NCBI GenBank assembly: GCA_041649315.1
Contig: JBAZNJ010000002.1
Coordinates: forward strand, 851-64,850
DNA from: Patescibacteria group bacterium
Lineage (GTDB): Bacteria > Patescibacteriota > Patescibacteriia > Patescibacteriales > UBA12465
Direction: 5' to 3'
DNA: 64,000 nt
In this document: positions 4,854-30,341 of the stretch, piece after piece
Numbering within the stretch: the first letter of the stretch is position 1
Layout of the letters: each line of letters starts with the position of its first letter
Translations under genes and position numbers: made by a program
The notes under the pieces: generated by a model
Told to the model about the DNA's origin: nothing
The model's input: the letters and a program-made list of their open reading frames with translations, nothing else
Databases searched by the model: none

Positions 4854-4901
4854 AATTAAAAGATTTAAAATTAAAAATTAAAAGATTATTTTAATAAATT
4901 T

Positions 4902-13859: not shown

Positions 13860-13881
13860 TAAATTAAATTTCACATATTCC

Positions 13882-14745: not shown

Positions 14746-14756
14746 AAAATTATTTT

Positions 14757-14880
14757 TAAAATTTCTAATATCAAATTTACAATTTCTAATCAATAACAAA
14801 ATCATAATTTCTAATTTTGACATTTGTATTTTGTAATTTAGATTTAATTGGTAATTTTGATTTTGAAATTAGAAATTAAT
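14757..14880 (+). repeat. AT-rich imperfect-palindrome intergenic element, copy 1 (short form)
   Basis: Shares the core aatcaataacaaaatcNtaatttctaattttgRcatttg and flanking aatttctaa / ttagaaatt arms with 22521-22720 (same orientation) and 30123-30330 (inverted). About four-fifths identical to copy 2 by hand alignment. Confidence 0.8.
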
Positions 14881-14886
14881 AATAAT

Positions 14887-15273
14887 ATGCCTTGGGAAAA
14901 AGAAAATATGTCATTTTCCGGCGGTGGCGAAAGCGAGGTAGAGGAACGCCGCAAATCAAGCCGTGAATATTATGATGATGAGGCCGCCGTGGAGGATTTT
15001 GTTGATGCGCCGCTTGATCCGTATCAAGAAAATTTAACGGACGAACGGGCGCGCCAAGAGGCGGATAAAGCAATTAAGCGCCAAGTGGATGCGGTGCGGG
15101 CGGAGAAGGAGGCCCAGGAAGCTCGGGAAGCGGCGGAAAAGAAGGATCGCGAGTATCGTCGTTTGGCGCGCGAATATACTAGAAAAATAATTAATGAAAT
15201 TGAGAGCAAGGAACCGTCTTTGCGCAAGCAAGAAGATAATAGAAAAGACAATAAAGAAGGGAATAGAGAATAA
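14887..15273 (+). CDS. Hypothetical highly charged (E/K/R-rich) protein, probably disordered/coiled coil
   Basis: ATG at 14887 (MPWEKENMSF...), 5 nt upstream of ileS. No recognisable domain. Compositional bias also creates several spurious antisense ORFs here. Confidence 0.45.
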   Translation: MPWEKENMSFSGGGESEVEERRKSSREYYDDEAAVEDFVDAPLDPYQENLTDERARQEADKAIKRQVDAVRAEKEAQEAREAAEKKDREYRRLAREYTRKIINEIESKEPSLRKQEDNRKDNKEGNRE

Positions 15274-15278
15274 TTTTT

Positions 15279-18200
15279 ATGCCGGAAGAAAAAGATAAAA
15301 CGAACAGCAGCTTGTCCTTCCCCCAAATGGAAGAAGAGGTTTTGAAATTCTGGGAAAGGGCCACGGTTTTTAAGAAATCTTTAGATAAGGAAGCGCCGCG
15401 TGGCGACTATGTTTTTTATGACGGTCCGCCTTTCGCGACCGGCACGCCGCATTATGGCCATATCGTCGGCAATATCATGAAAGATATTGTGCCGCGCTAT
15501 CAGACCATGCGCGGCCATCATGTTGATCGGAAATGGGGTTGGGATTGTCACGGTTTGCCGATTGAAAATATCGTTGAGAAAGAGCTTGGTACAAAGACGA
15601 AGAAAGAAATTGAAACGCTCGGCGTCGGGAAATTCAATAATCTTTGCCGGAAGAGTGTTTTGACTTATGTTGAAGAATGGAAAAAAGTTATCCGCCGCCT
15701 CGGCCGTTGGGCTGATATGGAGAACTCATATAAGACCATGGACCTTGATTTTATGGATTCTGTCTGGTGGGCGTTTAAACAGTTATGGGATAAGGGCTTG
15801 ATTTATAAGGATCATCGTTCAATGCATATCTGCCCGCGCTGTGAGACGACATTATCGCAGTCGGAAGTGAGTGAGGGTTATCGGGATGTTAAGGATTTGT
15901 CATGTATTGCGAAATTCCGTTTGGAGCCGGGGCAGAAAATTGGCAGTGAATTAGTTGACGCTAACACTTATGTTTTAGCTTGGACAACGACCCCCTGGAC
16001 TTTGATTGGAAATGTGGCGTTGGCGGTCGGGAAGGATATTGAATATGTGAAAGTGAAGTATCCGTTCGGCAACCTTTTAGCTGGTTCGGCTAAAGATTAT
16101 AAGCCGGGCCAACCTATCGAGGCTGATTTAGCTGATCAGCAAGGTGGCGGTATATTCATAGTAGCAAAGGAAAGATTGTCAGGAGTTTTTGTCGACCGTA
16201 GTCCGGAAATAATTTCTACATTCAAAGGCTCGGATTTGCTTGGCTTGAAATATGATCCATTATTCAATTACTACTCCGCCGACCAATCCTTGGCTAAGCG
16301 TGAGAACGGCTGGAAAATTTATGCCGGCGATTTTGTGACGACCGAAGAGGGAACCGGCGTTGTCCATATCGCGCCGGCTTTTGGCGAAGACGATATGAAG
16401 CTCGGCAAGGAAAATAATCTGCCTTTTGTCCAACATGTCGGGATGGACGGCGTTTTTAAATCGGAAGTCAAGGATTTTCCGGGTTTGCATGTTAAACCGA
16501 TTGATGACCATAGCTCGACTGATGTAGAAATCATAAAATATTTGGCGCATCACGGTTTATTGTTTTCAAAGGAAAAATACGAACACAGTTACCCGCATTG
16601 CTGGCGCTGTGATACGCCGCTCATCAATTATGCGACTTCTTCCTGGTTTGTTAATGTTACTAAGATAAAAGATCAGCTTTTAGAAAACGCGAAGGGAATT
16701 AATTGGTCGCCGGATTATCTTAAGGAAGGCCGTTTCGGCAATTGGCTTGAAGGCGCCCGTGACTGGTCGATTTCCCGCCAGCGTTTTTGGGCGAGCGCGA
16801 TTCCGATTTGGGAATGTTCTTGCGGCGAACGCCGAGTTATCGGTAGTGTCAAAGAGCTTGAGGAATTGAGCGGTATAAAAATAGACGATATCCATAAAGA
16901 CAAAGTTGACTCAATTACTTTCCCTTGTCCGAAATGCGGGGATTGGCTGAAACGGGTGCCAGATGTTTTGGATTGCTGGTTTGAATCCGGCTCCATGCCT
17001 TTCGCGCAACTACATTACCCGGCTGAAAACAAAGAAAAGTTTGAGCAGAATTTCCCGGCGGAATTTATCGCCGAAGGCGTAGACCAGACCCGTTGCTGGT
17101 TTTACTATCTCCATGTTATTGCCGGTGGGATTTTTAATAAGCCGTCTTTTAAAAATGTTATCGCTAATGGAATTGTTTTGGCTGAGGACGGCAAAAAGAT
17201 GAGCAAGCGCTTGAATAATTATCCCGATCCTTTGCTGGTGATGGATAAATACGGCTCGGATGCTTTACGCGCTTATTTAAGCGCCGCGCCGGTTATGGCG
17301 GCGGAAAATCTTAATTTTTCCGAAGCCGGTGTCCAGGAATCATTGCGCAAGAATATCATGGTCTTATGGAATGTTTATAAATTTTATGAGATGTTTGCGC
17401 TTGATAATGAGGCGTCAGTCGAGCCGGGAATGGGGAAAAATGTTTTAGATCAATGGATTTTAGCAAAATTTAATTTGTTAATTAAAGAAATTACGACGGC
17501 CATGGAGGATTATAATCTTCCGAAAGCGATGCGGCCGATTACGGAATTTATTGATGAGCTTTCGACTTGGTATCTGCGCCGTTCCCGCGATCGCTTTAAG
17601 TCCGAAGATGAAGCGGATAAACGAGAGGCTTTGGCAACGACTAAATATGTTTTAATGGAACTCGCTAAATTAATGGCGCCCTTTATGCCGTTTATGGCGG
17701 AAACTTTATGGCAGAAAGTAAGCGGATATGATTTGAAGGATGAAAATAAGTCGGTTCATTTAGAAAATTGGCCGGAGGGCGAACATTTATCTTTTCTTGC
17801 CAAGATTTTTAAGGGAGGGAATAAGGAAAAAGAAGTTTTAGATAAGATGGCTTTAGTCCGTCGTATTGCTGAGTTCGGACTAGCGAAGCGAGATGAGGCC
17901 GGTATTAAGATCAGGCAGATGCTTGAAAAATTAACCATTCGGGGCGCGGCCGCGTTGGAAGCGGAATATACTGATTTAATAAAAGATGAATTAAATATCA
18001 AGGGAGTTGAATTTTCTGATTTGACGGCCGAGAATATCAGCGTTGAGCTTGATACGGAAATTACTCCGGAATTAAAATTAGAAGGAACTAAGCGCGAAAT
18101 TATCCGTTTTGTTAATATGCTTCGCAAGGACGCTGGCTTGAATTTGCAGGATCGGGCGGCCGTTTATCTATCCGGCTCGGATGAGGATTTAGCTAAAAAT

Positions 18201-18338
18201 CTTGAAAAAATTAAAGAGGATATTTTACGAGAAACTTTGTCAGTGTCTTTAGAAATCGTGCCGGAAATAGAAATTGAAATTAAAAAAGAAATTAAGGTTG
18301 ATGGTGCTAAGTTGATGTTAGGGATTAAAAAAATATAA
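15279..18338 (+). CDS. ileS: Isoleucyl-tRNA synthetase (type 2 / eukaryote-like sequence type)
   Basis: 1019 aa with YDGPPFATGTPHYGHIVGN (HIGH region in the PPFATG form typical of type-2 IleRS), WDCHGLP, and KMSKRL (KMSKS). Confidence 0.97.
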   Translation: MPEEKDKTNSSLSFPQMEEEVLKFWERATVFKKSLDKEAPRGDYVFYDGPPFATGTPHYGHIVGNIMKDIVPRYQTMRGHHVDRKWGWDCHGLPIENIVEKELGTKTKKEIETLGVGKFNNLCRKSVLTYVEEWKKVIRRLGRWADMENSYKTMDLDFMDSVWWAFKQLWDKGLIYKDHRSMHICPRCETTLSQSEVSEGYRDVKDLSCIAKFRLEPGQKIGSELVDANTYVLAWTTTPWTLIGNVALAVGKDIEYVKVKYPFGNLLAGSAKDYKPGQPIEADLADQQGGGIFIVAKERLSGVFVDRSPEIISTFKGSDLLGLKYDPLFNYYSADQSLAKRENGWKIYAGDFVTTEEGTGVVHIAPAFGEDDMKLGKENNLPFVQHVGMDGVFKSEVKDFPGLHVKPIDDHSSTDVEIIKYLAHHGLLFSKEKYEHSYPHCWRCDTPLINYATSSWFVNVTKIKDQLLENAKGINWSPDYLKEGRFGNWLEGARDWSISRQRFWASAIPIWECSCGERRVIGSVKELEELSGIKIDDIHKDKVDSITFPCPKCGDWLKRVPDVLDCWFESGSMPFAQLHYPAENKEKFEQNFPAEFIAEGVDQTRCWFYYLHVIAGGIFNKPSFKNVIANGIVLAEDGKKMSKRLNNYPDPLLVMDKYGSDALRAYLSAAPVMAAENLNFSEAGVQESLRKNIMVLWNVYKFYEMFALDNEASVEPGMGKNVLDQWILAKFNLLIKEITTAMEDYNLPKAMRPITEFIDELSTWYLRRSRDRFKSEDEADKREALATTKYVLMELAKLMAPFMPFMAETLWQKVSGYDLKDENKSVHLENWPEGEHLSFLAKIFKGGNKEKEVLDKMALVRRIAEFGLAKRDEAGIKIRQMLEKLTIRGAAALEAEYTDLIKDELNIKGVEFSDLTAENISVELDTEITPELKLEGTKREIIRFVNMLRKDAGLNLQDRAAVYLSGSDEDLAKNLEKIKEDILRETLSVSLEIVPEIEIEIKKEIKVDGAKLMLGIKKI

Positions 18339-18375
18339 TAAAAAGCCGAGCTATCGGCTGTAATAAATAAAATAT

Positions 18376-19140
18376 ATGGGAGGAACAATTACATTTTTAA
18401 TCATCGTCGGGATTTTAATCCTGTCAATGCTTAAGCAGATTAATCAATACGAACGCGGCGTGAAATTCACGATGGGCAAATATAGCGGGATTATGGAGCC
18501 GGGTTGGAAAATCTTGATTCCAATTTTTCAGACTTTTAAGAAAGTCGATATGCGGATTAAGGCGGTTGACGTGCCGGATCAAAAAGCGATTACCCGCGAT
18601 AATGTGCCGGTAATGGTTAACGCCGTGATTTATTATAAAGTTTCCGCGGCCGAAAAAGCGGTCATTGAAGTTGAGAATTTTTATTACGCCATTTCCCAAT
18701 ATGCCCAGACCACGATGCGTAATATTGTCGGCGAAGCGACGCTTGATGAATTACTCGGCCAGCGGGAAAAAATTGCTGAACGGATTCGAGAAATCGTGGA
18801 TAAAGAAACCGACGCCTGGGGCCTGAAAGTAAATAATGTTGAATTAAAAGATGTTTCTTTGCCGGAATCAATGGAGCGCACGATCGCTAAGCAGGCCGAG
18901 GCCGAGCGCGAAAAGCGGGCGGTGATTATTAATTCCGAAGGGGAACTCGCGGCGGCGGAAAATATCGCCCGGGCCGCGGAAATTTTATCCCGTTCCGACG
19001 GGGCCTTGCATTTAAGGACCTTGCAATCGATCAATGATATTTCTAGCGACCAATCCAATACTATCGTTTTTGCGACGCCGGTGGAAATTCTTAAATCTTT
19101 TACTAGTTTTAAAAAGGGAGCGGGCGATAAGGTTGAATAA
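18376..19140 (+). CDS. SPFH/band-7 (stomatin-prohibitin-like) membrane protein
   Basis: N-terminal TM segment, then ...YERGVKFTMGKY...PDQKAITRDNVPVMVNAVIYYKV...AEAEREKRA, typical of stomatin/QmcA-like proteins. Confidence 0.85.
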   Translation: MGGTITFLIIVGILILSMLKQINQYERGVKFTMGKYSGIMEPGWKILIPIFQTFKKVDMRIKAVDVPDQKAITRDNVPVMVNAVIYYKVSAAEKAVIEVENFYYAISQYAQTTMRNIVGEATLDELLGQREKIAERIREIVDKETDAWGLKVNNVELKDVSLPESMERTIAKQAEAEREKRAVIINSEGELAAAENIARAAEILSRSDGALHLRTLQSINDISSDQSNTIVFATPVEILKSFTSFKKGAGDKVE

Positions 19141-19170
19141 AAAGGTTGAATAAAATTAAGAAATAATCCT

Positions 19171-20136: not shown

Positions 20137-20247
20137 GCGCGCGGCGGCTGGTAGCGGCCGGCAGCTAATATAGTCGATAGCCGCCGGAATAATCGCAATC
20201 GCGTTGCTGGCGGATAAAAAGTTTTTAGTGATTAGGTATAAAAAAAT

Positions 20248-20276
20248 CCCCTCGTCATAAGATAACGAGGGGGTTT
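20248..20276. terminator. Bidirectional intrinsic terminator between convergent genes
   Basis: cccctcgt (20248-20255) pairs with acgagggg (20265-20272). Flanked by aaaaaaa upstream and tttatttt downstream. Confidence 0.75.
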
Positions 20277-20279
20277 ATT

Positions 20280-20834
20280 TTATATTATCGGTGCGTCTTT
20301 GACATAAGAGAACATAGAATATTCTCTTATGTCTTTATTTTCATAACCAAGTATTTGGCAGCGCAATGGTTGGCCGTCTTTATCGAGCGCGAAATATTTA
20401 CAATCTCTGGGCCCGATTAGTACGCCGGTCGGCTTGTCTAGTAATAAGGAGCAGAGCTCGACTTTTTCTCCGTCTATATAGCCAATCCGGAAGTTTTTAG
20501 CTAATTTTGTCTCCTGTTCAAAGAATTTTTTAAGATCCAATTGGCTATTTTCTTCCGCAATTATGTTATTTGGTTCAAAAACTGCGATGATTGCAATTTT
20601 TTTCCAACCAAAGTTCCTCTGCCAAAAATTATCCCAGCCCTTGTCGGCCGCTTTGGCGTTTTCGTCCGCTTCAGCCGTAACCGTCAGTCCGGATTCGGTA
20701 ATTGCAATTTTACCAAAAAACCCGACGCGCTGCCAATGCCACCAATGGGATTTTTTTTGAGAAAAAGGTTCCCAAATTATTTTTAAAATTAATCCCAGGG
20801 TGACGTCCAATATATGAAATGGTTTTGTTTTCAT
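20280..20834 (-). CDS. Hypothetical protein (orphan, Trp-rich N-terminal half)
   Basis: 184-aa ORF with no domain I can recognise. Visibly fewer CpG than the neighbours. Followed upstream by the largest non-coding gap in the window. Confidence 0.45.
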   Translation of the reverse strand: MKTKPFHILDVTLGLILKIIWEPFSQKKSHWWHWQRVGFFGKIAITESGLTVTAEADENAKAADKGWDNFWQRNFGWKKIAIIAVFEPNNIIAEENSQLDLKKFFEQETKLAKNFRIGYIDGEKVELCSLLLDKPTGVLIGPRDCKYFALDKDGQPLRCQILGYENKDIREYSMFSYVKDAPII

Positions 20835-20868
20835 TATTAATTTTTTTTAAGTTAAACATTATAAATTT

Positions 20869-21013
20869 AATTATCGGTTCGAGCCCCGCGCTAGAAATAG
20901 ATCCGATAAAGAGTTTAAATCAATAAGCGAGCCGGACTTGGTAATGCCGAGTCAGATTATAGTTTGATCTCTGTAGTAAAATAGTAAAATCGCCAGGAAT
21001 CGAACTGATAATT
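20869..21013. repeat. 145-bp unit bounded by 14-nt inverted repeats that resemble tRNA T-arm sequence
   Basis: aattatcggttcga (20869-20882) is the reverse complement of tcgaactgataatt (21000-21013) with one G:T pair. Both arms read GGTTCGAGCCC / AGTTCGATTCC in their own orientation. An internal tandem tagtaaaa x2 lies at 20974-20989. Confidence 0.6.
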
Positions 21014-21227
21014 AAATTTTGTTTAACCTATTGTCAAAGAGCGGGTTAACTTATAGTCGATGCGTTTAGCCAAATAACCTATTAGTATACTTCGTGGTAT
21101 ACTTCTGGGGTAAATCGACAGATTTAAATTAACTGATTATTATATCATATTTCTTATCTCTTGTCAATATTTATTTAAAACTAATTATATATTATACTAA
21201 TATTATCTAAAAAATTGGCTAAAATAA

Positions 21228-22508
21228 ATGAAAAAATTAGAATTATTGGCTCCGGCCGGAAATATTTTAAAGCTAAAAACCGCTTTGGCCTATGGGGCAG
21301 ACGCGGTTTATTTAGGTATTCCGGATTTTTCGCTTCGGGTTCGGATTAATGATTTTGATTTAGCCGGAATAAAAAAGGCCGTGGCTTATGCCCGGACGCA
21401 TCATAAAAGAGTCTACGCGACTATTAATATTTTTGCTCATAATTGGCATTTTAAAAAATTGCCGGCTTATTTGAAAAAGTTGCGTGAGTTTAGAGTTGAT
21501 GCCTTGATTGTTTCTGATCCCGGGATTATTTCAGTAATAAAAAAAGTTTGGCCGAAGGCGGAAATCCATTTATCGACCCAGGCGAACTGTACGAATATAG
21601 AAGCAGTAAAGTTTTGGGCGGGCCAAGGGATTAAGCGGATAATTTTAGGCCGGGAAGTAACGTTGAAAGAAATAAAAGAAATTCATCGAGCCGTGCCGAA
21701 AATGGAATTAGAATATTTTGTTCATGGCGCGATGTGCATGGCTTATTCCGGCCGTTGTTTCCTGTCTAAATTATTTACGGATCGGAGCGGAAATTTAGGC
21801 GACTGCGCTCAACCCTGCCGTTGGGAATATAGCGCGGCGCGTTATGAAATTAAAGCCGAGAGGCACGAAGAAGAATTAGAAGTAGTTTCCGAACGGCATG
21901 GGACTTATCTTTTAAATTCCCGGGATTTATGTTTGCTCAAATATCTTAAAGAATTAGCGGCGGCCGGGGTGAGCAGTTTTAAAATTGAAGGCCGGGTAAA
22001 AAGCGTTTATTATCAGGCCACGGTTTGCGGTATTTATCGACTGGCGATTGAGTTAATTAATAAGAAAATTCCGGCGGCTAAAGCGCAGACGGAACTTGAT
22101 AATTTAGAACGTGAACTAGAGACAAAATTAGTCCATCGTGGCTATACGATTGGATTTTTATTGGGTGGCCGGGGCGAACAGAATATTAGTGCGGCGCAAG
22201 TGAAAAGCGTTTGGGAATTTTGCGGGCAGGTTGTTCCTGTCAAGGTCGGCAACGTTGGAAATAAAGGCCGGAATTTTATTTGTTTTAAGGTCCATAATAC
22301 CGTTAAGGTCGGGGACGAGTTAGAGATTATCCGGCCGAATTATGATATAATAAAGATAAGGCCGAAAAAGCTTTGGGACGCTAAAACCGGCTTGGAAATA
22401 AAGGAGGCGCATGGCGGGGGCGGCGGGCAGGTTGCGGTTTTAGAATCGCCGGCTTTGGTCGGCGCGGTTCCGGAATTTGCGGTTTTAAGAAGAAAGATTA
22501 AGAAATAA
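21228..22508 (+). CDS. Peptidase U32 family protein
   Basis: 426 aa. LELLAPAGN...AYGADAVYLG...RVYATINIF...FVHGAMCMAYSGRCFLS...CAQPCRW is the characteristic U32 block. Confidence 0.85.
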   Translation: MKKLELLAPAGNILKLKTALAYGADAVYLGIPDFSLRVRINDFDLAGIKKAVAYARTHHKRVYATINIFAHNWHFKKLPAYLKKLREFRVDALIVSDPGIISVIKKVWPKAEIHLSTQANCTNIEAVKFWAGQGIKRIILGREVTLKEIKEIHRAVPKMELEYFVHGAMCMAYSGRCFLSKLFTDRSGNLGDCAQPCRWEYSAARYEIKAERHEEELEVVSERHGTYLLNSRDLCLLKYLKELAAAGVSSFKIEGRVKSVYYQATVCGIYRLAIELINKKIPAAKAQTELDNLERELETKLVHRGYTIGFLLGGRGEQNISAAQVKSVWEFCGQVVPVKVGNVGNKGRNFICFKVHNTVKVGDELEIIRPNYDIIKIRPKKLWDAKTGLEIKEAHGGGGGQVAVLESPALVGAVPEFAVLRRKIKK

Positions 22509-22520
22509 ATTATTCATATT

Positions 22521-22720
22521 TAATTTCTAAATCCATGAATATTAATTTCAAATTTCTAAATCCTAATTTCCAATCAATAACAAAATCCTAATTTCTAATT
22601 TTGGCATTTGAACTTTGAAATTCGGATTTGATTGGTAGTTTGGATTTTGACATTAGAAATTTTAAATATAATTTTTTAATCTTCAATCTTAAATTTTAAA
22701 TATTTAAATCTTTAATATTT
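22521..22720 (+). repeat. AT-rich imperfect-palindrome intergenic element, copy 2 (long form)
   Basis: Fills the gap between the U32 stop and the ruvA start. Its reverse complement aligns along the length of 30123-30330, including an uninterrupted identical 72-nt run (22539-22610 vs 30234-30305). Confidence 0.9.
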
Positions 22721-22722
22721 CT

Positions 22723-23304
22723 ATGATCTCATTCCTACGTGGTCAAATTATCCATAAAACCAACAATTATTTTATTCTAGAAGCTAGCAATATCGGCTAC
22801 CAGGTCTTTGCCGGTGAAAATTTTTTGGCGGATTTGAAACTTGGCGCGACGCTTGAAGTTTTTACCCATCATCGCGTTCGGGAAGAAGCCAGTGATCTCT
22901 ATGGTTTTAAGACGGCTGCGGATTTGGAATTGTTCGAATTACTCCTAACTGTTTCCGGCGTTGGTCCGAAATCTGCGCTCGGCGTTTTAGCAATCGCGTC
23001 GGCCGATGATGTCAAAGAAACGATTATTCGCGGCGACGCCGCCCTTTTGACCAAAGTTTCTGGTATCGGGAAAAAAACCGCTGAACGTTTAGTCCTGGAA
23101 TTAAAAAATAAGATTATCCGAACCGGGGCGGCGGGTGCGGTTCTTAATTCCGCGGTTACCCTTGGTAGCGACGAAATTGACGCCTTAATCGCTCTCGGTT
23201 ATTCGCTCGCCGATGCCCGGGAGGCCCTAAACGCGATCGGGCCGGAGATTGAAGACAGCGGCGAACGGGTTAAGGCGGCTTTAAAGAAAATCGGGCGGAA
23301 ATAA
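22723..23304 (+). CDS. ruvA: Holliday junction DNA helicase subunit RuvA
   Basis: MISFLRGQI...GYQV...LYGF...FELLLTVSGVGPKSALGVL...VSGIGKKTAERLVLELK (OB fold plus tandem HhH). Confidence 0.9.
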   Translation: MISFLRGQIIHKTNNYFILEASNIGYQVFAGENFLADLKLGATLEVFTHHRVREEASDLYGFKTAADLELFELLLTVSGVGPKSALGVLAIASADDVKETIIRGDAALLTKVSGIGKKTAERLVLELKNKIIRTGAAGAVLNSAVTLGSDEIDALIALGYSLADAREALNAIGPEIEDSGERVKAALKKIGRK

Positions 23305-23398
23305 AGGAGAAAAGACTGAAAGTAATGCTTTACAATCGCCCATTTTTCCGTTAGTATAAAGATAAATTCTCCTTAAATTTATTTGTCAAATTTTAAAT

Positions 23399-24625: not shown

Positions 24626-24646
24626 TTAAAACCATTAAGATTGATT

Positions 24647-25687
24647 ATGTTCAATAAATTGATTGGAAAATTAAGCCATGATTTAGGTATCGACCTCGGG
24701 ACGAGGAATACTCTTGTTTATGTTGCGGATAAAGGGGTGATTATTAACGAGCCGAGCGTCGTGGCGATCAATAAGCGGACGAATGAAATTTTGGAAGTCG
24801 GCGAAGCGGCGAAAAAGATGGTCGGCAAGACGCCCGGCCATATTGAAGCGATTAAACCTTTAGTTGAGGGCGTAATTTCGGATTTTGAAGTGACCGAGAA
24901 GATGTTGAAATATTTTATCAACAAGGTTCATAGTGAAAACTTTACTTTGATTTCCCGGCCGCGGGTGGCGATTGGGATTCCTTTGGATTTGACTGAAGTT
25001 GAAAAAAAGGCAGTGGAGGACGCGGCGAAATCGGCTGGCGCCCGTAAAGTTTATTTAGTTGAAGAAGCGATGGCTGCGGCGATTGGCGCGCGCTTACCGG
25101 TGACGGAAGCAACCGCGACCATGATTGTTGATATCGGCGGCGGTACGGCGGAAATTGCCGTAATTTCTTTAGGCGGCGTGGTTTCCTGGAAGTCCTTAAA
25201 ATCAGCCGGCAATGAGTTTGATAGCGATATTATTGAATATATCCGCGAAGAATTCAATGTTTTGATTGGTGAACAATTAGCGGAAAAAATAAAAATTGCT
25301 ATCGGTTCGGCTATGCCCTTAGAAGAAGCGCAGGAAATTGAAGTGCGTGGGCGCGATTTGCTAACCGGCTTGCCGAAAGCGATGATGATTAGCGATAAGC
25401 AAGTGCGGGAAGCTATTTCCCGGACGGTTAATAAGATTGTGGAAAATATTAAAATTATTTTAGAGACCACGCCGCCGGAATTAGTGTCGGATATTTATGA
25501 GCGTGGCTTATATTTGTCGGGCGGTGGGGCCTTGTTGCGCGGCTTAGATCAGGCGATTGCCGCGGCCGCCAAGATCCCCGTAAATATTGTCGATGATCCG
25601 CTTACTTGTGTTGTCCGCGGAACCGGAATCCTTTTAAACGATAAAAATCTTTTAGAGAAAGTAGTCCTGCCGACAATTAGCAGTTAA
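24647..25687 (+). CDS. mreB: Rod-shape-determining actin homologue MreB (copy 1, in mreBCD)
   Basis: DLGIDLGTRNTLVY...NEPSVVA...DIGGGTAEIAVISLGGVV...LSGGGALLRGLD. The ATG at 24647 is preferred over the TTG at 24641. Confidence 0.95.
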   Translation: MFNKLIGKLSHDLGIDLGTRNTLVYVADKGVIINEPSVVAINKRTNEILEVGEAAKKMVGKTPGHIEAIKPLVEGVISDFEVTEKMLKYFINKVHSENFTLISRPRVAIGIPLDLTEVEKKAVEDAAKSAGARKVYLVEEAMAAAIGARLPVTEATATMIVDIGGGTAEIAVISLGGVVSWKSLKSAGNEFDSDIIEYIREEFNVLIGEQLAEKIKIAIGSAMPLEEAQEIEVRGRDLLTGLPKAMMISDKQVREAISRTVNKIVENIKIILETTPPELVSDIYERGLYLSGGGALLRGLDQAIAAAAKIPVNIVDDPLTCVVRGTGILLNDKNLLEKVVLPTISS

Positions 25688-25733
25688 GCGACCATATTTT
25701 TTCGTTCCGGTAATTTATGCAATAAAATTTGTT

Positions 25734-26537
25734 ATGATTAAAGATAAAAAAAATAAAAGATTGCTTATCTGGGCGGTAGTCGGCGGACTACTGATTTTTT
25801 TACATATCCTTGGCGCTCTTCGTCCTCTGGAAGATTCTTTAAGCGCTTTGATTAGTCCTTTAGCCGCGCGTTGGCAGGTCCGGGGGCTTAACTCGGCTTT
25901 GCCGGGAGGCGAGGAAGAAAATATTGATGATTTGCGTGGCCGGATTAATGAATTAAATAAGGAGTTGGCTGTCCAGTTAGTCGCGGAGTCCCGGTATCGG
26001 GAAATAGAGGAAGAGAACCAGAAGTTAAAAAATTTATTAAATTTTTTAGACGGCCAGGATTATCGGACAATCGGCGCGGCGCTTATCGCGCGGGAAGAAG
26101 CGGCCAAAGGCGGATACGACCTTATTATTGACCGCGGCGCGGCGGACGGTTTGCGGACCGGCTTAGGAGTAATAAATGAAGAGGGAATCATAATCGGGCT
26201 GGTTAAAGAAGTAAAAAAGAATACGGCAGAAATTTGCTTGATTACGACGCCGGATTGCCGCTTGGCCGCGACGATCCAAAATGAAGATAGAACTCAAGGA
26301 ATTGCTGATGGCGATTTAGGATTGACGGTCAAGATGGAATATATTCCTCAGACAGAAAAAATAAATTTAGGCGATATCGTAATTAGTTCCGGGCTCGGCG
26401 GCGATATTCCGCGCGGCTTAGTAATCGGTCGCGTGGCTCAGATCAGGAGCGAAAGTAATGATGTTTGGCAGGAAGCGACAATTGAGCCCTTAGTAAATTT
26501 TAATGATTTAACCGTCGTAGCTGTGGTCATCCCTTAG
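25734..26537 (+). CDS. mreC: Rod-shape-determining protein MreC
   Basis: N-terminal TM, a coiled-coil segment (ELNKELAVQL...ENQKLKNLL), and a C-terminal beta-barrel region. Lies directly after mreB. Confidence 0.8.
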   Translation: MIKDKKNKRLLIWAVVGGLLIFLHILGALRPLEDSLSALISPLAARWQVRGLNSALPGGEEENIDDLRGRINELNKELAVQLVAESRYREIEEENQKLKNLLNFLDGQDYRTIGAALIAREEAAKGGYDLIIDRGAADGLRTGLGVINEEGIIIGLVKEVKKNTAEICLITTPDCRLAATIQNEDRTQGIADGDLGLTVKMEYIPQTEKINLGDIVISSGLGGDIPRGLVIGRVAQIRSESNDVWQEATIEPLVNFNDLTVVAVVIP

Positions 26538-26540
26538 TTT

Positions 26541-27083
26541 ATGCTTAAAAAAATTGCGCAGATAATTTTTTTCATTATTATTGTTTCTTTAGCCGCTCTG
26601 GCGCAATTTTCTTTTATTTCCGCCCTGCCGTCTTTTTGGCGTTATCTTAATTTACCTTTGATTCTTATAATTTTCTTTTTATTTTTTTCCGGTGAGCGCG
26701 CCGCTTTCGGCGCCGCTTTGATAGCCGGTTTTTGGCTGGATATTTTATTTTTTAATTTTTTTGGTTTACGGATTATTACTTTATTAGTAACGGCTTGGCT
26801 GGCACAGTGCCTTTTTTTAACCTGGCTAACCAACCGTTCTTTATATTCTTTTTTAATATTGATTTTGGCGGCGACTTTAGTTTATAATTTTTTAACAGCT
26901 TTTGGCTTATTTTTAACGGCGCCGGACGGCACGTGTTTTTTCCTGATTAAAGAGAGTTTTTGGCGCGGGCTGGTCTATCAAGGTGCTTGGAGCGCTTTAG
27001 CCGCCCTTTTAGCCTTTAATTTAGTTAGTGTGCTAACCCGCCGTTTTCGGCCGGTTTTTTTGGAAAAAGGGCCGGGTTTATGA
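26541..27083 (+). CDS. mreD: Rod-shape-determining protein MreD (polytopic membrane protein)
   Basis: 180-aa hydrophobic protein 3 nt after mreC. The assignment rests mainly on synteny. Confidence 0.6.
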   Translation: MLKKIAQIIFFIIIVSLAALAQFSFISALPSFWRYLNLPLILIIFFLFFSGERAAFGAALIAGFWLDILFFNFFGLRIITLLVTAWLAQCLFLTWLTNRSLYSFLILILAATLVYNFLTAFGLFLTAPDGTCFFLIKESFWRGLVYQGAWSALAALLAFNLVSVLTRRFRPVFLEKGPGL

Positions 27084-27089
27084 TATAAT
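27081..27089 (+). promoter_or_regulatory. Extended -10 box candidate (TGATATAAT) overlapping the mreD stop codon
   Basis: tgatataat at 27081-27089, ~60 nt upstream of the PfkB-kinase ATG. Confidence 0.35.
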
Positions 27090-27149
27090 CTTAGTGTTAA
27101 AATAGCTTATTGCCGGATAATCAGCATAGAGAATTAATTTTTATAAATT

Positions 27150-28187
27150 ATGAAAAATGAATTCATTACTATCGGCGGGACGACTCGCGATATCTCTTTT
27201 TTTGATAATCATGGGATTCCGGTCGATAATTGCCGAGGTAAATTTTGCCGCAAGTTATTGGCTTTTGAGCCGGGGGCGAAGATAAAAGTTGATAAGTTTT
27301 ATTATTCTTACGGCGGCGGCGCGGCTAATGCCGCGGTCTGTTTGGCTAATTTTGGTTTTAAGGTTTCTTGTTTGGCGCCGATTGGCGATGATGAGAATGG
27401 GCGTTTTATCAAAGAGAACTTGAAAAAACGCCGGGTTGATATTTCTTTAATGCGGACGGTTAAAAGGGAAGAAAGCGGTTCGTCTTTTATTTTAGTTTCT
27501 CCTACGGGTGAACGGATAATTTTTGCTCAACGCGGCGCCAATGTTAAGCTGAAGATAAATTCTTCGGATTTAGAATCTTTGAAGAAAACTAAATATGTTT
27601 ATATTGCTTCTTTAGCCGGCGCCTGGAGGGAAAATTTAAGGAAAATTTTTAGCGCGGTCGGCCATAATCATCATTGGATTTTTTGGAATCCGGGCACGAC
27701 CCAGTATCTTGGCGGTCCGGAAAGAATCGCTCCTTTTTTAAAGAAAGTTACGGTTTTAGCTTCTAACCAAGAAGAAGCGCAGAAATTATTGCGCTCTTCA
27801 AAAAAATATCGCCAGCTTAATGAGGAATTTTTAAATAATCCTGATAATTTAGTAAAAATTCTCCATGATCTTGGCCCGAAAATCGTGATCATAACTTTAG
27901 GGGCGGCCGGCGTAATCGTTTATGACGGCAAGAAATTTTATCGCCGAAATATCATAAAAGAAAAGAGGCGGGTCGATACGACCGGTATTGGCGATATCTT
28001 TAATTCGTCTTTTGCCGCCGGTTTGGCGCTTTATAAGGGGGATATCAATAAGGCTTTGCGTTTAGGTCTGAAGAACGCCGCGCTTAAGGTCGCGTATTTA
28101 GGTGCGCACCATGATCACCTTTTAAAATTGAAAGATATCAAGGCCCCGCGACCAAAAAACGGCCGGAAGGTTAAAAATAAAAAATAA
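27150..28187 (+). CDS. PfkB-family carbohydrate kinase (ribokinase-like)
   Basis: GGGAANAAV (N-terminal GG motif) and DTTGIGDIFNSSFAAGL (C-terminal PfkB signature). Confidence 0.8.
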   Translation: MKNEFITIGGTTRDISFFDNHGIPVDNCRGKFCRKLLAFEPGAKIKVDKFYYSYGGGAANAAVCLANFGFKVSCLAPIGDDENGRFIKENLKKRRVDISLMRTVKREESGSSFILVSPTGERIIFAQRGANVKLKINSSDLESLKKTKYVYIASLAGAWRENLRKIFSAVGHNHHWIFWNPGTTQYLGGPERIAPFLKKVTVLASNQEEAQKLLRSSKKYRQLNEEFLNNPDNLVKILHDLGPKIVIITLGAAGVIVYDGKKFYRRNIIKEKRRVDTTGIGDIFNSSFAAGLALYKGDINKALRLGLKNAALKVAYLGAHHDHLLKLKDIKAPRPKNGRKVKNKK

Positions 28188-28188
28188 T

Positions 28189-28644
28189 ATGATTAAAGAT
28201 TTGGTAATAAAAAAAGTAGAAAAATATACTGACGAGCGCGGCTGGCTGGTCGAGGTTTGGCGCCGCGATGAGTTAGCGGGCTTTGATCCAGCTATGGCGT
28301 ATTTAAGTTTAACCAAGCCGGGAGTGGTTCGTGGCCCGCATGAGCACGTTGCTCAAAGCGATTGTTTTATTTTTGCCGGACCGGGAAATTTTCGTTTATA
28401 TTTATGGGATCGCCGGGAAGAATCGCCGACTAAAGGGGAGAAAATGAAGATTGAAGTCGGCGCGGCCAACCCGACTTTGGTAATCGTGCCGCCGGGAGTG
28501 GTGCATGGCTATCAATGTATTTCTGAGGAAGCGGCGATTAGCATTAACTTGCCGGATAAATTATATAAGGGCGAAGGGAAGAAAGAAGAAGTTGATGAGA
28601 TCCGTTGGGAAAGTCGGGCGGATAGCCCGTATCGGATTGAGTAG
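28189..28644 (+). CDS. RmlC-like cupin (sugar-nucleotide 3,5-epimerase-related), short form
   Basis: 151 aa. DERGWLVEVWR...RGPHEH...PPGVVHGY resembles the RmlC fold motifs. Lies next to rfbB. Confidence 0.55.
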   Translation: MIKDLVIKKVEKYTDERGWLVEVWRRDELAGFDPAMAYLSLTKPGVVRGPHEHVAQSDCFIFAGPGNFRLYLWDRREESPTKGEKMKIEVGAANPTLVIVPPGVVHGYQCISEEAAISINLPDKLYKGEGKKEEVDEIRWESRADSPYRIE

Positions 28645-28718
28645 GATGGTTGTTGGGGTTATGTGAGAGGTTATTGTCGCTGAATAGCTATAAGATTTTT
28701 ATTATCCATATAGTATTT

Positions 28719-29114
28719 ATGTGTATATTTTGCAAAATAATCAATGGCGAATTGCCGTCTTACAAAGTTTACGAAGATGAGAATAATCTAGCTTTTTTAG
28801 ATATCGCGCCGGTTAATCCCGGCCACACCTTAGTCGTTCCGAAAAAGCATTATGAGAATATGGAAAAAATTCCGGCCGCGGACTTACAGTCGCTGATTTT
28901 AGCCGTTAAAAAGGTCGGCCGTTTATTAAAAGAAAAATTAGGCGTCCCCGGTTATAATATCAGCGTTAATAATGATCCGATTGCCGGCCAGATCGTCCCG
29001 CATTTACATTTCCATATTATGCCGCGTCGGCCGGGTGATGGGTATGAATTATGGAAGCAGGGGGAATATAAAGAGGGCGAAGCGGAGGAGATAATAAATA
29101 AATTACTATCATAA
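28719..29114 (+). CDS. HIT-family nucleotide hydrolase/transferase
   Basis: MCIFCKIINGELP...VPHLHFHIMPR (histidine triad). The internal ATG at 28719 is preferred over the 28650 start. Confidence 0.9.
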   Translation: MCIFCKIINGELPSYKVYEDENNLAFLDIAPVNPGHTLVVPKKHYENMEKIPAADLQSLILAVKKVGRLLKEKLGVPGYNISVNNDPIAGQIVPHLHFHIMPRRPGDGYELWKQGEYKEGEAEEIINKLLS

Positions 29115-29116
29115 TT

Positions 29117-30103
29117 ATGAAACTACTTGTGACCGGCGGCGCCGGCTTCATCGGTTCAAATTTTATTCGTTATTGGTTTAAGAATAATCCCGACGACTTG
29201 ATTGTTAATCTTGATCTTTTGACTTATGCCGGAAATTTAGCCAGCTTAAAAGATGTGGAGAATAATCCGAATTATAAATTTATTCAAGGCGACATTGCCA
29301 ATCCGGCAGTCGTGGCGGAAGCGATAAAAGGCGTTGATTTAATCGTTCATTTCGCGGCCGAAAGTCATGTCGATCGTTCCATAAAAAACAGCGCGGATTT
29401 TGTCCGGACTAATATTGAGGGAACGCGAATTTTATTAGAAGCGGCCCGGGCGGCTGGCGGGTCGGACGGAAAAGGAATCCGTTTTCATCATATTTCCACT
29501 GATGAAGTTTTTGGTTCTTTGTCTCCGGCTGATGTGCCGTTTAATGAAAAAACGCCTTATGATCCGCGCTCGCCTTACAGCGCTTCTAAAGCCGCCGCCG
29601 ATCATCTGGTTCGGGCCTATTGGCATACTTACGGATTGCCAATCACGATTTCAAATTGTTCTAATAATTATGGCCCTTATCAGTATCCGGAAAAACTTAT
29701 TCCATTATTTATTACTAATTTAATAGAAGGAAAGAAAGTTCCGGTTTATGGTGAGGGGAAAAATATCCGTGATTGGATCCATGTTGATGACCATAATCGC
29801 GGTGTCGAATTTATTATTAAAAAAGGAAAAATTGGCGCCACTTATTGTTTAGGTGGCAATGGCGAAAAAACTAATTTAGAAATTACTAAGATGATTCTAG
29901 AATTAATGGGGCAGGGCGAAGACATGATTGAGTATGTTACGGATCGTCCCGGTCATGATTTACGTTACGCGATTGATTTTTCTAAAGCCAAGAAAGAGTT
30001 GGGCTGGGAGCCGCAGATTGATTTTAAAGAAGGACTGCGGCAGACCGTTGAATGGTATAAAGATAATAAGGCTTGGTGGGAGAAATTAAAATTAAAAAAT
30101 TAA
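29117..30103 (+). CDS. rfbB: dTDP-glucose 4,6-dehydratase
   Basis: MKLLVTGGAGFIGSNF...AAESHVDRS...YSASKAAADHLVRAY (SDR Y-x3-K)...RPGHDLRYAID. Confidence 0.92.
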   Translation: MKLLVTGGAGFIGSNFIRYWFKNNPDDLIVNLDLLTYAGNLASLKDVENNPNYKFIQGDIANPAVVAEAIKGVDLIVHFAAESHVDRSIKNSADFVRTNIEGTRILLEAARAAGGSDGKGIRFHHISTDEVFGSLSPADVPFNEKTPYDPRSPYSASKAAADHLVRAYWHTYGLPITISNCSNNYGPYQYPEKLIPLFITNLIEGKKVPVYGEGKNIRDWIHVDDHNRGVEFIIKKGKIGATYCLGGNGEKTNLEITKMILELMGQGEDMIEYVTDRPGHDLRYAIDFSKAKKELGWEPQIDFKEGLRQTVEWYKDNKAWWEKLKLKN

Positions 30104-30122
30104 ATATTAAAAATTTAAAATT

Positions 30123-30330
30123 AAAAGATTAAAAATTTAAATATTTAAAATTTAAGATTGAAGATTAAAAAATTATAATTAAAATTTCTAATATCAAAAT
30201 CCAAATTACCAATCAAGTCCAAATTACAAAATTCAAATGCCAAAATTAGAAATTAGGATTTTGTTATTGATTGGAAATTAGGATTTAGAAATTTGAAATT
30301 AATATGCATGGATTTAGCCATTAGAAATTA
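30123..30330 (-). repeat. AT-rich imperfect-palindrome intergenic element, copy 3 (long form, inverted relative to copy 2)
   Basis: See copy 2. Identical runs of 42 nt (tttaaatatttaaaatttaagattgaagattaaaaaattata) and 72 nt, with about ten mismatches and two small indels elsewhere (hand alignment). Confidence 0.9.
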
Positions 30331-30341
30331 ACTATAAATGT

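What the first reader, a model, noticed from the sequence alone, without database searches (positions are those of the whole stretch)
14757..30330. Three-copy family of AT-rich, imperfectly palindromic intergenic elements (about 125-210 bp)
The same element occupies three intergenic gaps: 14757-14880, 22521-20 (22521-22720) and 30123-30330.

All copies share the core aatcaataacaaaatcNtaatttctaattttgRcatttg. All are flanked by arms built from aatttctaa / ttagaaatt, so each copy is itself a long imperfect palindrome. The two long copies also carry an aaatatttaaaatttaagattgaagattaaaaaatt module.

Shorter relatives of that module (aaaattaaaagatt) occur after holB (4852-4887) and at 30117-30130.

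Each copy fills the space between the end of one transcription unit and the start of the next. None encodes an ORF.

This is too long and too conserved to be ordinary AT-rich spacer. The long copies share an uninterrupted identical 72-nt run.

Possible roles are a MITE-like mobile element, a REP-like bidirectional terminator or insulator, or a small structured RNA. The sequence alone does not separate these.
Basis: seen in the sequence. Interest (0 to 1): 0.55.

Follow-up and report, generated by a model that had tools for sequence, protein, structure and literature searches.

The report
ORF-less copies of a mobile hairpin cassette

Summary
There are three copies: A at 14757-14880, B at 22513-22720 and C at 30124-30331 (inverted). 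They share an exact 39-nt core, and B and C are 93% alike over 208 nt.

- **Host and sites.** The host is a Patescibacteria (CPR) bacterium. In all held relatives that keep the same gene order, the B and C gaps are only 2-43 nt, so B and C are insertions. The A site has only indirect support.
- **Link to an ORF.** In another contig of the same species, two half-elements bracket a 122-aa PF05635/TIGR02436 ("23S rRNA intervening-sequence", four-helix-bundle) gene. The gene sits exactly where the ORF-less copies have their hairpin loop.
- **Generality.** All 11 related IVP genes examined in other Patescibacteria, and 3 of 3 on cyanobacterial plasmids, sit between inverted arms. Two other lineages also hold ORF-less copies whose arms match their own local cassette.
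- **Mobility.** One cassette is 100% identical over 463 nt in two unrelated contexts, with identity ending at the arm tips.
- **Arm structure.** The arms are arrays of degenerate 7-nt units, as in the Coxiella IVS.

Best reading: these are MITE-like, ORF-less derivatives of a mobile IVS-type cassette. The transposition mechanism, the RNA processing and any host function remain inferred.

The parts
14757..14880 (+). Copy A: ORF-less hairpin element of about 124 nt. It lies between a UMPH-1-type nucleotidase gene (13840-14745) and a 128-aa gene (14887-15273) that precedes IleRS. Arms are 14760-14793 and 14844-14877.
   Evidence: nhmmer E 2.8e-25; I4: 34-nt arms, 79% complementary. The centre keeps GACAT, the reverse complement of ATGTC, which is the start of the IVP ORF. 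Lag-7 autocorrelation is 0.57.
22513..22720 (+). Copy B: 208-nt element between the peptidase U32 gene (21228-22508) and ruvA (22723-23304). Hairpin arms are 22544-22599 and 22606-22661. An outer heptamer tract (the 'module') spans 22662-22720.
   Evidence: I1; MFE -35.5, z -3.1; E 7.8e-40; I2. The site is empty in relatives L006-L019 and L135, where the gap is 2-35 nt.
30124..30331 (-). Copy C: 208-nt element, reverse complement of B. It lies between an NAD-dependent epimerase/dehydratase gene (29117-30103) and a CheY-type response regulator gene (30342-30767). Hairpin arms are 30183-30238 and 30245-30300. The outer heptamer tract spans 30124-30180.
   Evidence: I1, 93% to B; E 3e-39; I1. The site is empty in relatives, where the gap is 4-43 nt. 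C differs from B by a 7-nt indel, TGGCTAA.
4831..4887 (.). Short A/T tract with a 7-8-nt period after the holB-like gene. It may be a remnant or an unrelated simple repeat, and its membership of the family is doubtful.
   Evidence: fourth best lag-7 signal in the window; families D1 and I7 show only 66-75% similarity to the B/C module. The element profile does not hit it.

Best explanation
The three elements are ORF-less, MITE-like derivatives of a small mobile cassette.

**The full cassette.** It consists of two inverted arms, each an array of degenerate 7-nt units (here AATTTCN / NGAAATT). The arms enclose a roughly 120-aa gene of the PF05635/TIGR02436 family (23S rRNA intervening-sequence protein, 'S23p', an Avd-like four-helix bundle). 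This is the architecture of the ORF-bearing intervening sequences of Coxiella and Leptospira 23S rRNA. In Patescibacteria, however, the cassette sits in the short spacers of ordinary protein-coding operons, co-oriented with the downstream gene.

**The window copies.** A, B and C keep both arms and the ORF's start (ATGTC) and post-stop sequence, but lack the ORF body. B and C entered 2-43-nt spacers of conserved gene strings, in either orientation.

**What is shown.**
- Homology of the window copies to the cassette arms.
- Insertion of B and C, from empty sites in relatives.
- A discrete mobile unit bounded by the arm tips.
- Co-evolution of the arms across lineages.
- Heptamer periodicity of the arms.

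**What is inferred.**
- Once transcribed within the operon, the arms pair into a 35-55-bp imperfect stem. By analogy with rRNA intervening sequences, RNase III would cut this stem, so the insertion is tolerated and may cleave or punctuate the polycistronic mRNA.
- Movement depends on a factor supplied in trans. This could be the IVP protein binding the heptamer arrays or an unidentified recombinase.
For: 1. **Half-elements around an IVP gene.** A profile of the window copies finds two half-elements in a second contig of the same species. L005:6838-6906 matches model positions 12-62 and L005:7276-7347 matches positions 66-134. They flank a 122-aa ORF. That ORF is PF05635 (E 8.6e-14) and TIGR02436 (E 4.8e-21).
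2. **ORF-less centres match the composite join.** Alignment A4 shows this, including the conserved CAT, the reverse complement of the start codon. The same relation holds in a second lineage (A7).
3. **Empty sites.** In L006-L009, L011, L014-L019 and the nearest relative L135 (RuvA 51-77% identical), U32->RuvA and epimerase->response-regulator are adjacent, with gaps of 2-43 nt. The window has 214 and 238 nt.
4. **All related IVP genes are bracketed.** All 11 Patescibacteria IVP genes examined have inverted arms of 24-58 nt. The 9 that were scored gave IR scores of 16.5-35.5. For 806 control ORFs the mean is 8.5, the 99th percentile 13.5 and the maximum 20.5. Three of 3 cyanobacterial plasmid homologues are bracketed too.
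5. **Identical cassette in two contexts.** The P0217 cassette is 100% identical over 463 nt in two unrelated gene contexts. Identity stops at the arm tips.
6. **Local arm types.** ORF-less copies in two other lineages (L110:2774-2903, L099:4620-4757) carry the arm type of their own local cassette.
7. **Arm co-variation.** Arms differ between lineages but stay complementary: 71% paired against 31-50% for slid controls, and 16 columns with changes on both sides against 7-12.
8. **Heptamer periodicity.** The best autocorrelation lag is 7 in 29 of 34 arms and 14 in 4. Among 30 intergenic gaps of the window, only the three element gaps show it. Coxiella's IVS has GACAGAT heptamers before the S23p start (PMC4990558).
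9. **Folding of the full cassette.** Its RNA folds with the terminal stem enclosing the ORF: MFE -111 kcal/mol, z -5.6.
10. **Conservation of the protein.** IVP proteins are 66-77% identical across Patescibacteria classes whose RuvA proteins are only about 40-47% identical.
Against: - No transposase or recombinase is linked to the cassette, and PF05635 has no known catalytic activity.
- No target-site duplication could be defined in the AT-rich flanks.
- The third P0217 arrangement (L112, L113, L117) may be an assembly chimera, so 'two contexts' rests on short metagenomic contigs.
- Nothing shows that the hairpin acts as RNA. Within the species only 1 of 42 pairs is compensatory, and G.U against A.C mismatches show no bias to the transcribed strand (2 vs 3 in the ORF-less copies; 10 vs 17 in the cassettes).
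- No RNase III gene was found in the sequence held.
- Copy number in the full genome is unknown. An exact-core scan of one related metagenome gave only three loci.
- The direction of descent (ORF lost from the cassette, or ORF gained by a hairpin) is inferred, not proven.
- The A site has no clean empty-site comparison. L006 shows only a 10-nt gap before a similarly placed 126-aa ORF whose orthology was not tested.
Confidence: 0.7

Rival explanations
1. This is a conventional MITE. The arms are terminal inverted repeats recognised by a transposase of an unlinked insertion sequence elsewhere in the genome. The IVP gene is only a passenger in some copies.
For: - The element has the general MITE anatomy: small size, inverted ends, no transposase, both orientations, and empty sites in relatives.
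- PF05635 has no known DNA-cleaving activity (PMC4990558).
Against: - The association of arms with IVP genes holds in 11 of 11 Patescibacteria cassettes and 3 of 3 cyanobacterial ones, with quite different arm sequences. A passenger picked up repeatedly is hard to reconcile with that.
- Complementarity runs along the whole 35-58-nt arms up to the ORF's start and stop, not just 15-30 nt at the tips.
- No transposase gene is seen next to any cassette. The rest of the genomes could not be searched.
Confidence: 0.15
2. This is a host-serving operon punctuation element. It would be a REP/ERIC-like hairpin acting as a bidirectional terminator, mRNA stabiliser or processing site, or a promoter-bearing insulator. 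It would be kept because of that function, whatever its origin.
For: - All copies lie in tail-to-head gaps just upstream of a start codon.
- The hairpins are stable, and the transcribed strand folds 1.6-3.7 kcal/mol better than the other strand in 4 of 4 copies.
- Weak promoter-like hexamers lie in or beside the elements (14817-14844 and 30152-30179).
Against: - The same operons in about a dozen relatives work with 2-43-nt spacers and no element.
- B and C are in opposite orientation relative to transcription, so any asymmetric signal, including the promoter-like site in the module, points the wrong way in one of them.
- There is no G+C-rich stem and no consistent T tract.
- There is no strand-specific G.U signal.
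Confidence: 0.1
3. This is a family of small structured RNA genes or cis-regulatory RNAs.
For: The elements have hairpin potential, with z between -2.0 and -3.1.
Against: - No Rfam family reaches threshold; the only matches are sub-threshold plant miRNA-precursor hairpins.
- Only 1 compensatory pair is seen in 42.
- The elements are absent from orthologous sites in relatives.
- Their orientation relative to neighbouring genes is not fixed.
Confidence: 0.03

Closest known systems
ORF-bearing 23S rRNA intervening sequences (Coxiella burnetii IVS, Leptospira IVS)
   Same: - Terminal inverted repeats form a long stem, with a roughly 120-aa PF05635 'S23p' ORF in the loop, sense to the host transcript.
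- Tandem heptamers lie before the start codon.
- ORF-less or decaying versions exist, and distribution is sporadic and horizontal (PMC4990558). Here.
   Different: - These elements are not in rRNA. They lie in spacers of protein-coding operons.
- There are several copies per genome, in both orientations.
- ORF-less copies far from any rRNA gene dominate in the window.
- RNase III excision was not tested.
Short ORF-less 23S rRNA IVSs (Salmonella, Yersinia, Campylobacter; 80-150 nt hairpins cut by RNase III)
   Same: The size (about 125-135 nt for the hairpin), the imperfect AT-rich stem-loop and the lack of an ORF match (PMC2672173).
   Different: The location is intergenic mRNA rather than helix 9, 25 or 45 of 23S rRNA. 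No sequence similarity was tested. Processing is unknown.
Bacterial MITE-like palindromic repeats (Correia/NEMIS of Neisseria, ERIC/IRU of enterobacteria, RUP and BOX of pneumococcus)
   Same: These are 100-200-nt imperfect palindromes inserted in transcribed intergenic regions, in either orientation and with no ORF. From my own knowledge, Correia RNA hairpins are RNase III substrates.
   Different: - There is no sequence relation to these families.
- The arms here are arrays of heptamers rather than unique 20-30-bp inverted repeats.
- The ORF-bearing partner encodes a four-helix-bundle protein, not a transposase.
- No TA or other target duplication was seen.
Cyanobacterial STRR heptanucleotide tandem repeats (own knowledge: Mazel et al. 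1990)
   Same: Both are tandem 7-nt units in intergenic DNA. In three cyanobacterial plasmids such arrays, in inverted orientation, bracket four-helix-bundle genes.
   Different: To my knowledge STRRs were described as simple tandem arrays with no linked gene. I found no paper linking them to PF05635. The unit sequences differ.
Avd, the accessory protein of diversity-generating retroelements
   Same: Avd is homologous to the PF05635 four-helix-bundle pentamer fold (PMC10053308). The closest solved structure to the IVP here is 2rld (E 1.4e-12).
   Different: No reverse transcriptase, template repeat or variable repeat lies next to the cassettes examined.
Integron gene cassettes with attC hairpins
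   Same: Both are promoterless small ORFs, co-oriented with the host transcript and associated with an imperfect palindrome of similar size. ORF-less cassettes exist in both.
   Different: - The palindrome here encloses the ORF instead of following it.
- No integrase and no array were seen.
- No GTTRRRY core was noted at the ends on reading the sequences.
- I considered this reading and rejected it.

Membership tests
MITE (miniature inverted-repeat transposable element) | Small size (under about 600 bp) with no coding capacity | tested here: met
   The elements are 124-208 nt. Only trivial ORFs of at most 36 aa lie within them.
MITE (miniature inverted-repeat transposable element) | Terminal inverted repeats | tested here: met
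   The arms are 34-57 nt and 70-79% complementary.
MITE (miniature inverted-repeat transposable element) | Several copies, with insertion polymorphism (filled against empty sites) | tested here: met
   There are at least 4 ORF-less loci plus 1 ORF-bearing locus in the species. The B and C sites are empty in all relatives held.
MITE (miniature inverted-repeat transposable element) | Target-site duplication | tested here: inconclusive
   No duplication is recognisable at the P0217 cassette junctions or at the window copies. The flanks are AT-rich, and the relatives are too distant to align.
MITE (miniature inverted-repeat transposable element) | A related autonomous element with the same ends that encodes a transposase | tested here: not met
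   A longer partner with the same ends exists, but its only ORF is PF05635, which is not a known transposase. Whole genomes could not be searched for an insertion sequence.
23S rRNA intervening sequence (IVS) | Inserted in a helix of the 23S (or 16S) rRNA gene | tested here: not met
   All copies lie between protein-coding genes, and no rRNA is present in the window.
23S rRNA intervening sequence (IVS) | Complementary termini that form a long stem | tested here: met
23S rRNA intervening sequence (IVS) | PF05635 ORF in the loop of the large forms, sense to the host transcript | tested here: met
   The cassette at L087:9941-10424 carries such an ORF. All 11 Patescibacteria cassettes examined (the 9 tallied in note 6, plus L125 and L133) are co-oriented with the downstream gene.
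23S rRNA intervening sequence (IVS) | Excision from the transcript by RNase III | not testable with these tools
   No transcript data are available. No RNase III signature was found in the DNA held.
REP/BIME elements | 20-40-nt G+C-rich palindromes, often in clusters, linked to a RAYT (TnpA-REP) gene | tested here: not met
   The element-bearing gaps are 13-18% G+C, the elements are 124-208 nt and they occur singly. No RAYT was seen in the annotated neighbourhoods.
Known Rfam RNA family | Score at or above a family's gathering threshold | tested here: not met
   There are 0 hits in the window. Only sub-threshold miRNA-hairpin models match.

The most novel reading that the evidence does not exclude
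PF05635 'intervening-sequence protein' cassettes would be an unrecognised class of autonomous mobile element, found in Patescibacteria and Cyanobacteria and, as rRNA IVSs, in Coxiella and Leptospira.

- A pentameric four-helix-bundle protein would recognise inverted arrays of heptamer repeats at the element's ends and promote, or be required for, its movement or maintenance. This could happen through an RNA or hairpin-DNA intermediate.
- rRNA intervening sequences and heptamer-repeat palindromes such as the three in this window would then be landing sites and ORF-less relics of that one element class.
Probability: 0.3. Interest if true: 0.85.

Novelty: new variant of a known kind. Interest (0 to 1): 0.66.

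Why it matters
**The open question.** Intervening sequences of bacterial rRNA and their 'S23p' ORF have been known since about 1990, yet their origin and the protein's function remain unexplained. Whether they are mobile was only a conjecture (Ralph and McClelland 1993, as cited in PMC4990558).

**What this locus adds.**
- The same architecture lives outside rRNA, in the operon spacers of small-genome CPR bacteria.
- It moves as a discrete unit bounded by its inverted heptamer arrays.
- It leaves ORF-less copies.

**What becomes testable.**
- Does IVP bind the heptamer arrays?
- Does RNase III excise the cassette from mRNA?
- Can a marked cassette move?

**Practical use.** It also explains a class of oversized AT-rich spacers, and probably some contig breaks, in Patescibacteria assemblies. 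It gives a simple signature for finding such elements: lag-7 periodicity in inverted arms around a roughly 120-aa ORF.

Tried and rejected
- **Genome scan with the core.** An exact 25-nt core scan of 185,579 species genomes gave 0 hits. The species is not represented, and the core does not survive between species.
- **Viral contigs.** One arm motif gave 0 hits. The other gave 7 hits, all chance matches inside coding sequence with no palindrome and no IVP. There is no sign of a phage vector.
- **Strand-specific RNA selection.** Counts of G.U against A.C mismatches in the arms showed no bias. The small MFE advantage of the transcribed strand is therefore not taken as evidence.
- **Covariation within the species.** There is too little variation: 1 compensatory pair in 42.
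- **Target-site duplication.** None is definable.
- **RNase III.** A signature search of the DNA held found nothing, which is uninformative.
- **Promoter or terminator role.** Only weak consensus matches were found, and they are inconsistent between orientations.
- **IVP homologues near RuvA.** None occurs in the 80 RuvA-centred loci of other species.
- **Integron attC reading.** Rejected on anatomy.
- **Literature.** Searches for a described link between PF05635 genes and flanking heptamer or inverted repeats, or for MITEs in CPR, found only three relevant papers: the Coxiella IVS paper, a survey of CPR rRNA insertions that lists a few IVP ORFs in rRNA, and DGR papers.

Full report
**1. The observation**

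The three intergenic gaps 14746-14886, 22509-22722 and 30104-30341 hold related AT-rich sequence.
- The repeat finder reports B (22513-22720) and C (30124-30331) as a 208-nt inverted pair, 93% complementary. A (14739-14886) is 72-86% like both.
The longest identical run between B and C is 74 nt.
- A 26-nt piece of the core has no expected chance match, even with three mismatches allowed.
- Twelve of the 17 exact AATTTCTAA sites in the window fall in the three elements, against 3.1 expected for the whole window.
- Each copy folds into one long imperfect hairpin.
- Only trivial ORFs of at most 36 aa lie within the elements.

The observation therefore stands, with three corrections. C is inverted relative to B. 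The identical run is 74 nt, not 72. The 'short relatives' near 4852-4887 are only a short periodic A/T tract.

**2. Host and setting**

RuvA, encoded just downstream of B, is identical to a protein from a 270-kb ENA contig that NCBI names 'Patescibacteria group bacterium'. The nearest relatives are 76-80% identical, and hits named Falkowbacteria lie at 68-71%. All genes around the elements are on the + strand, and the elements sit in tail-to-head gaps. Rfam finds nothing in the whole window at gathering thresholds. At relaxed thresholds the elements hit only plant miRNA-precursor hairpin models far below cut-off.

**3. Insertions, not ancestral spacers**

A RuvA-centred scan of species genomes and one contig look-up gave about a dozen relatives, with RuvA 51-77% identical. 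They keep the gene orders peptidase U32 -> RuvA and epimerase -> response regulator. In these relatives the two spacers are 2-35 nt and 4-43 nt. In the nearest relative, L135, they are 13 and 4 nt. The window has 214 and 238 nt. So B and C were inserted in the lineage of this species. For A there is only indirect support: L006 has a 10-nt gap before a similarly placed 126-aa ORF whose orthology was not tested.

**4. More copies, and the key lead**

An exact-core scan of JGI metagenomes found three loci, all in one sample. Two are the orthologues of B and C in a near-identical strain. The third is a new copy, D, upstream of an RNase H gene.

An nhmmer profile of the copies then found two half-elements on the same contig as D: L005:6838-6906 and L005:7276-7347. 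They match the left and right halves of the model and flank a 122-aa ORF.
- The ORF belongs to PF05635, '23S rRNA-intervening sequence protein' (E 8.6e-14), and to TIGR02436, 'four helix bundle protein' (E 4.8e-21). Its closest solved structure is 2rld.
- The ORF lies between lepA and recJ, with the arms filling the gaps.
- Aligning the arms, with the ORF removed, against A-D shows that the ORF-less centre corresponds to the join. It retains GACAT, the reverse complement of ATGTC, which is the start of the ORF.
- The full cassette RNA folds with a terminal stem enclosing the ORF: -111 kcal/mol, z -5.6.

**5. The architecture is general**

The IVP protein has thousands of homologues. The top 120 are 66-77% identical, and those with names span Moran-, Magasanik-, Nomura-, Kuenen- and Falkowbacteria. 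RuvA between such groups is only about 40-47% identical, which hints at horizontal spread.

I retrieved the DNA around ten further homologous genes in nine contexts.
- None is in rRNA. They sit in tight spacers of ordinary operons, co-oriented with the downstream gene.
- Every one is bracketed by inverted arms of 24-58 nt.
- A local-alignment score for flanking inverted repeats is 16.5-35.5 for the nine IVP genes scored. For 806 control ORFs of similar size the mean is 8.5, the 99th percentile 13.5 and the maximum 20.5.
- Arms from different lineages share motifs with the window elements.

**6. Evidence for a discrete mobile unit**

One protein, P0217, is encoded in two unrelated contexts: glycosyltransferase -> IVP -> TPR gene, and a 976-aa gene -> IVP -> radical-SAM gene. 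Each context was seen in at least two independent assemblies. The DNA is 100% identical over 463 nt, and identity begins and ends at the tips of the inverted arms. A third arrangement combines the left flank of one context with the right flank of the other. It is either a recombinant between copies or a repeat-induced assembly chimera.

The window-derived profile also detects full-length ORF-less elements in two of these other lineages: L110:2774-2903 (E 2e-6) and L099:4620-4757 (E 6e-4). Their arms are of the local cassette type, not the window type. The L110 copy equals its cassette's 5' end joined to its 3' end. Pairs of ORF-bearing and ORF-less elements that co-evolve within each lineage are the pattern expected of an element and its deletion derivatives.

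**7. Arm structure**

- **Complementarity across lineages.** The arms differ in sequence between lineages but stay complementary. With arms anchored on the shared motif, 71% of positions pair, against 31-50% when partners are slid by 1-3 nt. Sixteen columns show changes on both sides, against 7-12 in the slid controls.
- **Heptamer periodicity.** The arms are arrays of degenerate heptamers. The best autocorrelation lag is 7 in 29 of 34 arms and 14 in four. Of 30 intergenic gaps of at least 55 nt in the window, only the three element gaps have their maximum at lag 7, with values of 0.57-0.58 against at most 0.42 elsewhere. A sliding scan of the window ranks the elements first.
- **The 'module' and a unit indel.** B and C differ by a one-unit (7-nt) indel.
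- **Other phyla.** Three four-helix-bundle genes on Nostoc, Dolichospermum and Pseudanabaena plasmids are also bracketed by inverted tandem arrays of short repeat units, heptamers in Nostoc and Dolichospermum. The Dolichospermum arms are TAATTCG repeats, 33 nt and 100% complementary.
- **Coxiella.** The Coxiella IVS is described with terminal inverted repeats forming the stem, the S23p ORF in the loop, RNase III excision, and three or four GACAGAT heptamers before the start codon whose number varies between strains (PMC4990558).

**8. Mechanism**

What is shown:
- homology between the window elements and the arms of IVP cassettes;
- insertion of B and C into conserved operons;
- a discrete unit bounded by the arms;
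- arm complementarity maintained across lineages;
- heptamer periodicity.

What is inferred:
- The ORF-less copies arose by loss of the ORF body.
- When transcribed, the arms pair into a stem that RNase III cleaves, as in rRNA IVSs. This would make the insertion tolerable and might split the polycistronic mRNA.
- Movement requires a trans factor, either IVP binding the heptamer arrays or an unknown recombinase.

I could not show action at the RNA level. There is too little variation within the species, no G.U bias on the transcribed strand, no transcript data, and no RNase III gene in the DNA held. No target duplication could be defined.

**9. Rivals**

- **A standard MITE mobilised by an unlinked insertion sequence** remains possible, because PF05635 is not a known transposase. 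It fits poorly with the universal association of very different arm sequences with the same ORF family.
- **A host-serving terminator, insulator or promoter** is unlikely as the primary explanation. Relatives lack the elements, and B and C have opposite orientations. Secondary use by the host is not excluded.
- **A small RNA gene** has no support.

**10. Comparison with what is known**

By architecture the elements are the closest thing to rRNA intervening sequences, both the ORF-bearing and the short forms. They fail the defining location test, because they are not in rRNA. By behaviour they are MITE-like, but no transposase partner and no target duplication were found.

A survey of CPR rRNA insertions lists a few 23S_rRNA_IVP ORFs inside 16S and 23S insertions and calls the domain uncharacterised (bioRxiv 10.1101/2024.02.27.582315). 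In the library searched I found no description of IVP cassettes in operon spacers, of their ORF-less derivatives, or of inverted heptamer arrays as a family-wide signature. That is the limit of this novelty claim: the library lacks most subscription journals.

**11. Verdict**

The finding is real. It is best filed as a new variant of a known kind: IVS-type hairpin cassettes living and moving outside rRNA, with MITE-like relics. Interest is above that of an ordinary repeat family. It gives concrete handles on the origin of rRNA intervening sequences and on the function of a very large protein family of unknown role.

Noticed in passing
L052:7688-7847 (Patescibacteria UBA2591): A weak but full-length match to the element profile lies inside an RNase HII-like coding sequence. 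It reads as an in-frame AT-rich palindromic insertion of about 50 aa. A hairpin element may have been absorbed into a protein.
   Followed up: no
L026:5345-5737 (-) and L018:13042-13470 (+): The control ORFs with the strongest flanking inverted repeats turned out to be other small 'selfish-looking' genes: a GxxExxY protein (TIGR04256, E 2e-22) and a DUF559 endonuclease-like protein. Hairpin bracketing may extend to other small ORF families in Patescibacteria.
   Followed up: partly
L065:7630-7700; L070:13880-13990; L028:9827-9972: Intergenic palindromes in Doudna- and Magasanikbacteria end in TAATTTCTAAT...ATTAGAAATTA, and a Zambryskibacteria palindrome at L028 carries AATTTCTAA repeats on one arm only. 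The Doudnabacteria copy lies directly upstream of RuvA. They may be distant ORF-less relatives.
   Followed up: partly
window 20137-21227: A minus-strand 184-aa ORF (20280-20834) has no Pfam or NCBIfam match. It has long AT-rich flanks, a perfect TTGACA-17-TATAAT promoter-like site (21167-21139, -) and a G+C hairpin terminator (20272-20248, -). The gene is absent between the NIF3 and U32 genes in the nearest relative, L135. This looks like another lineage-specific insertion.
   Followed up: partly
L112, L113, L117 compared with L110 and L111: A third arrangement of the P0217 cassette joins the left flank of one context to the right flank of the other. It appears in three independent assemblies. 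It is either recombination between cassette copies or a repeat-induced assembly chimera.
   Followed up: partly
window 22520-22540 against 30305-30331: B and C differ by a 7-nt indel (TGGCTAA), exactly one heptamer unit, near the outer end. This suggests unit gain or loss by slippage, as reported for the Coxiella IVS heptamers.
   Followed up: partly
window 4831-4887: A short A/T tract with a 7-8-nt period follows the holB-like gene. It is the fourth best lag-7 signal in the window. It could be a remnant arm or an unrelated simple repeat.
   Followed up: partly
L006:10608-11807 and L007 (same position): Two related species carry an extra gene of about 400 aa between ruvA and the class-II tRNA synthetase gene (Pfam tRNA-synt_2b); its function was not checked. 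The window lacks it.
   Followed up: no
window 1-64000: No Rfam family reaches its gathering score anywhere in the 64 kb.
   Followed up: no
window 25108-25187 and 31255-31334; window 3486-3544 and 3672-3730: Two direct repeats lie inside coding sequence. One is 78% identical between the two MreB-like paralogues. The other is an 85% identical 59-nt internal repeat in the 728-aa ORF 1584-3770.
   Followed up: no
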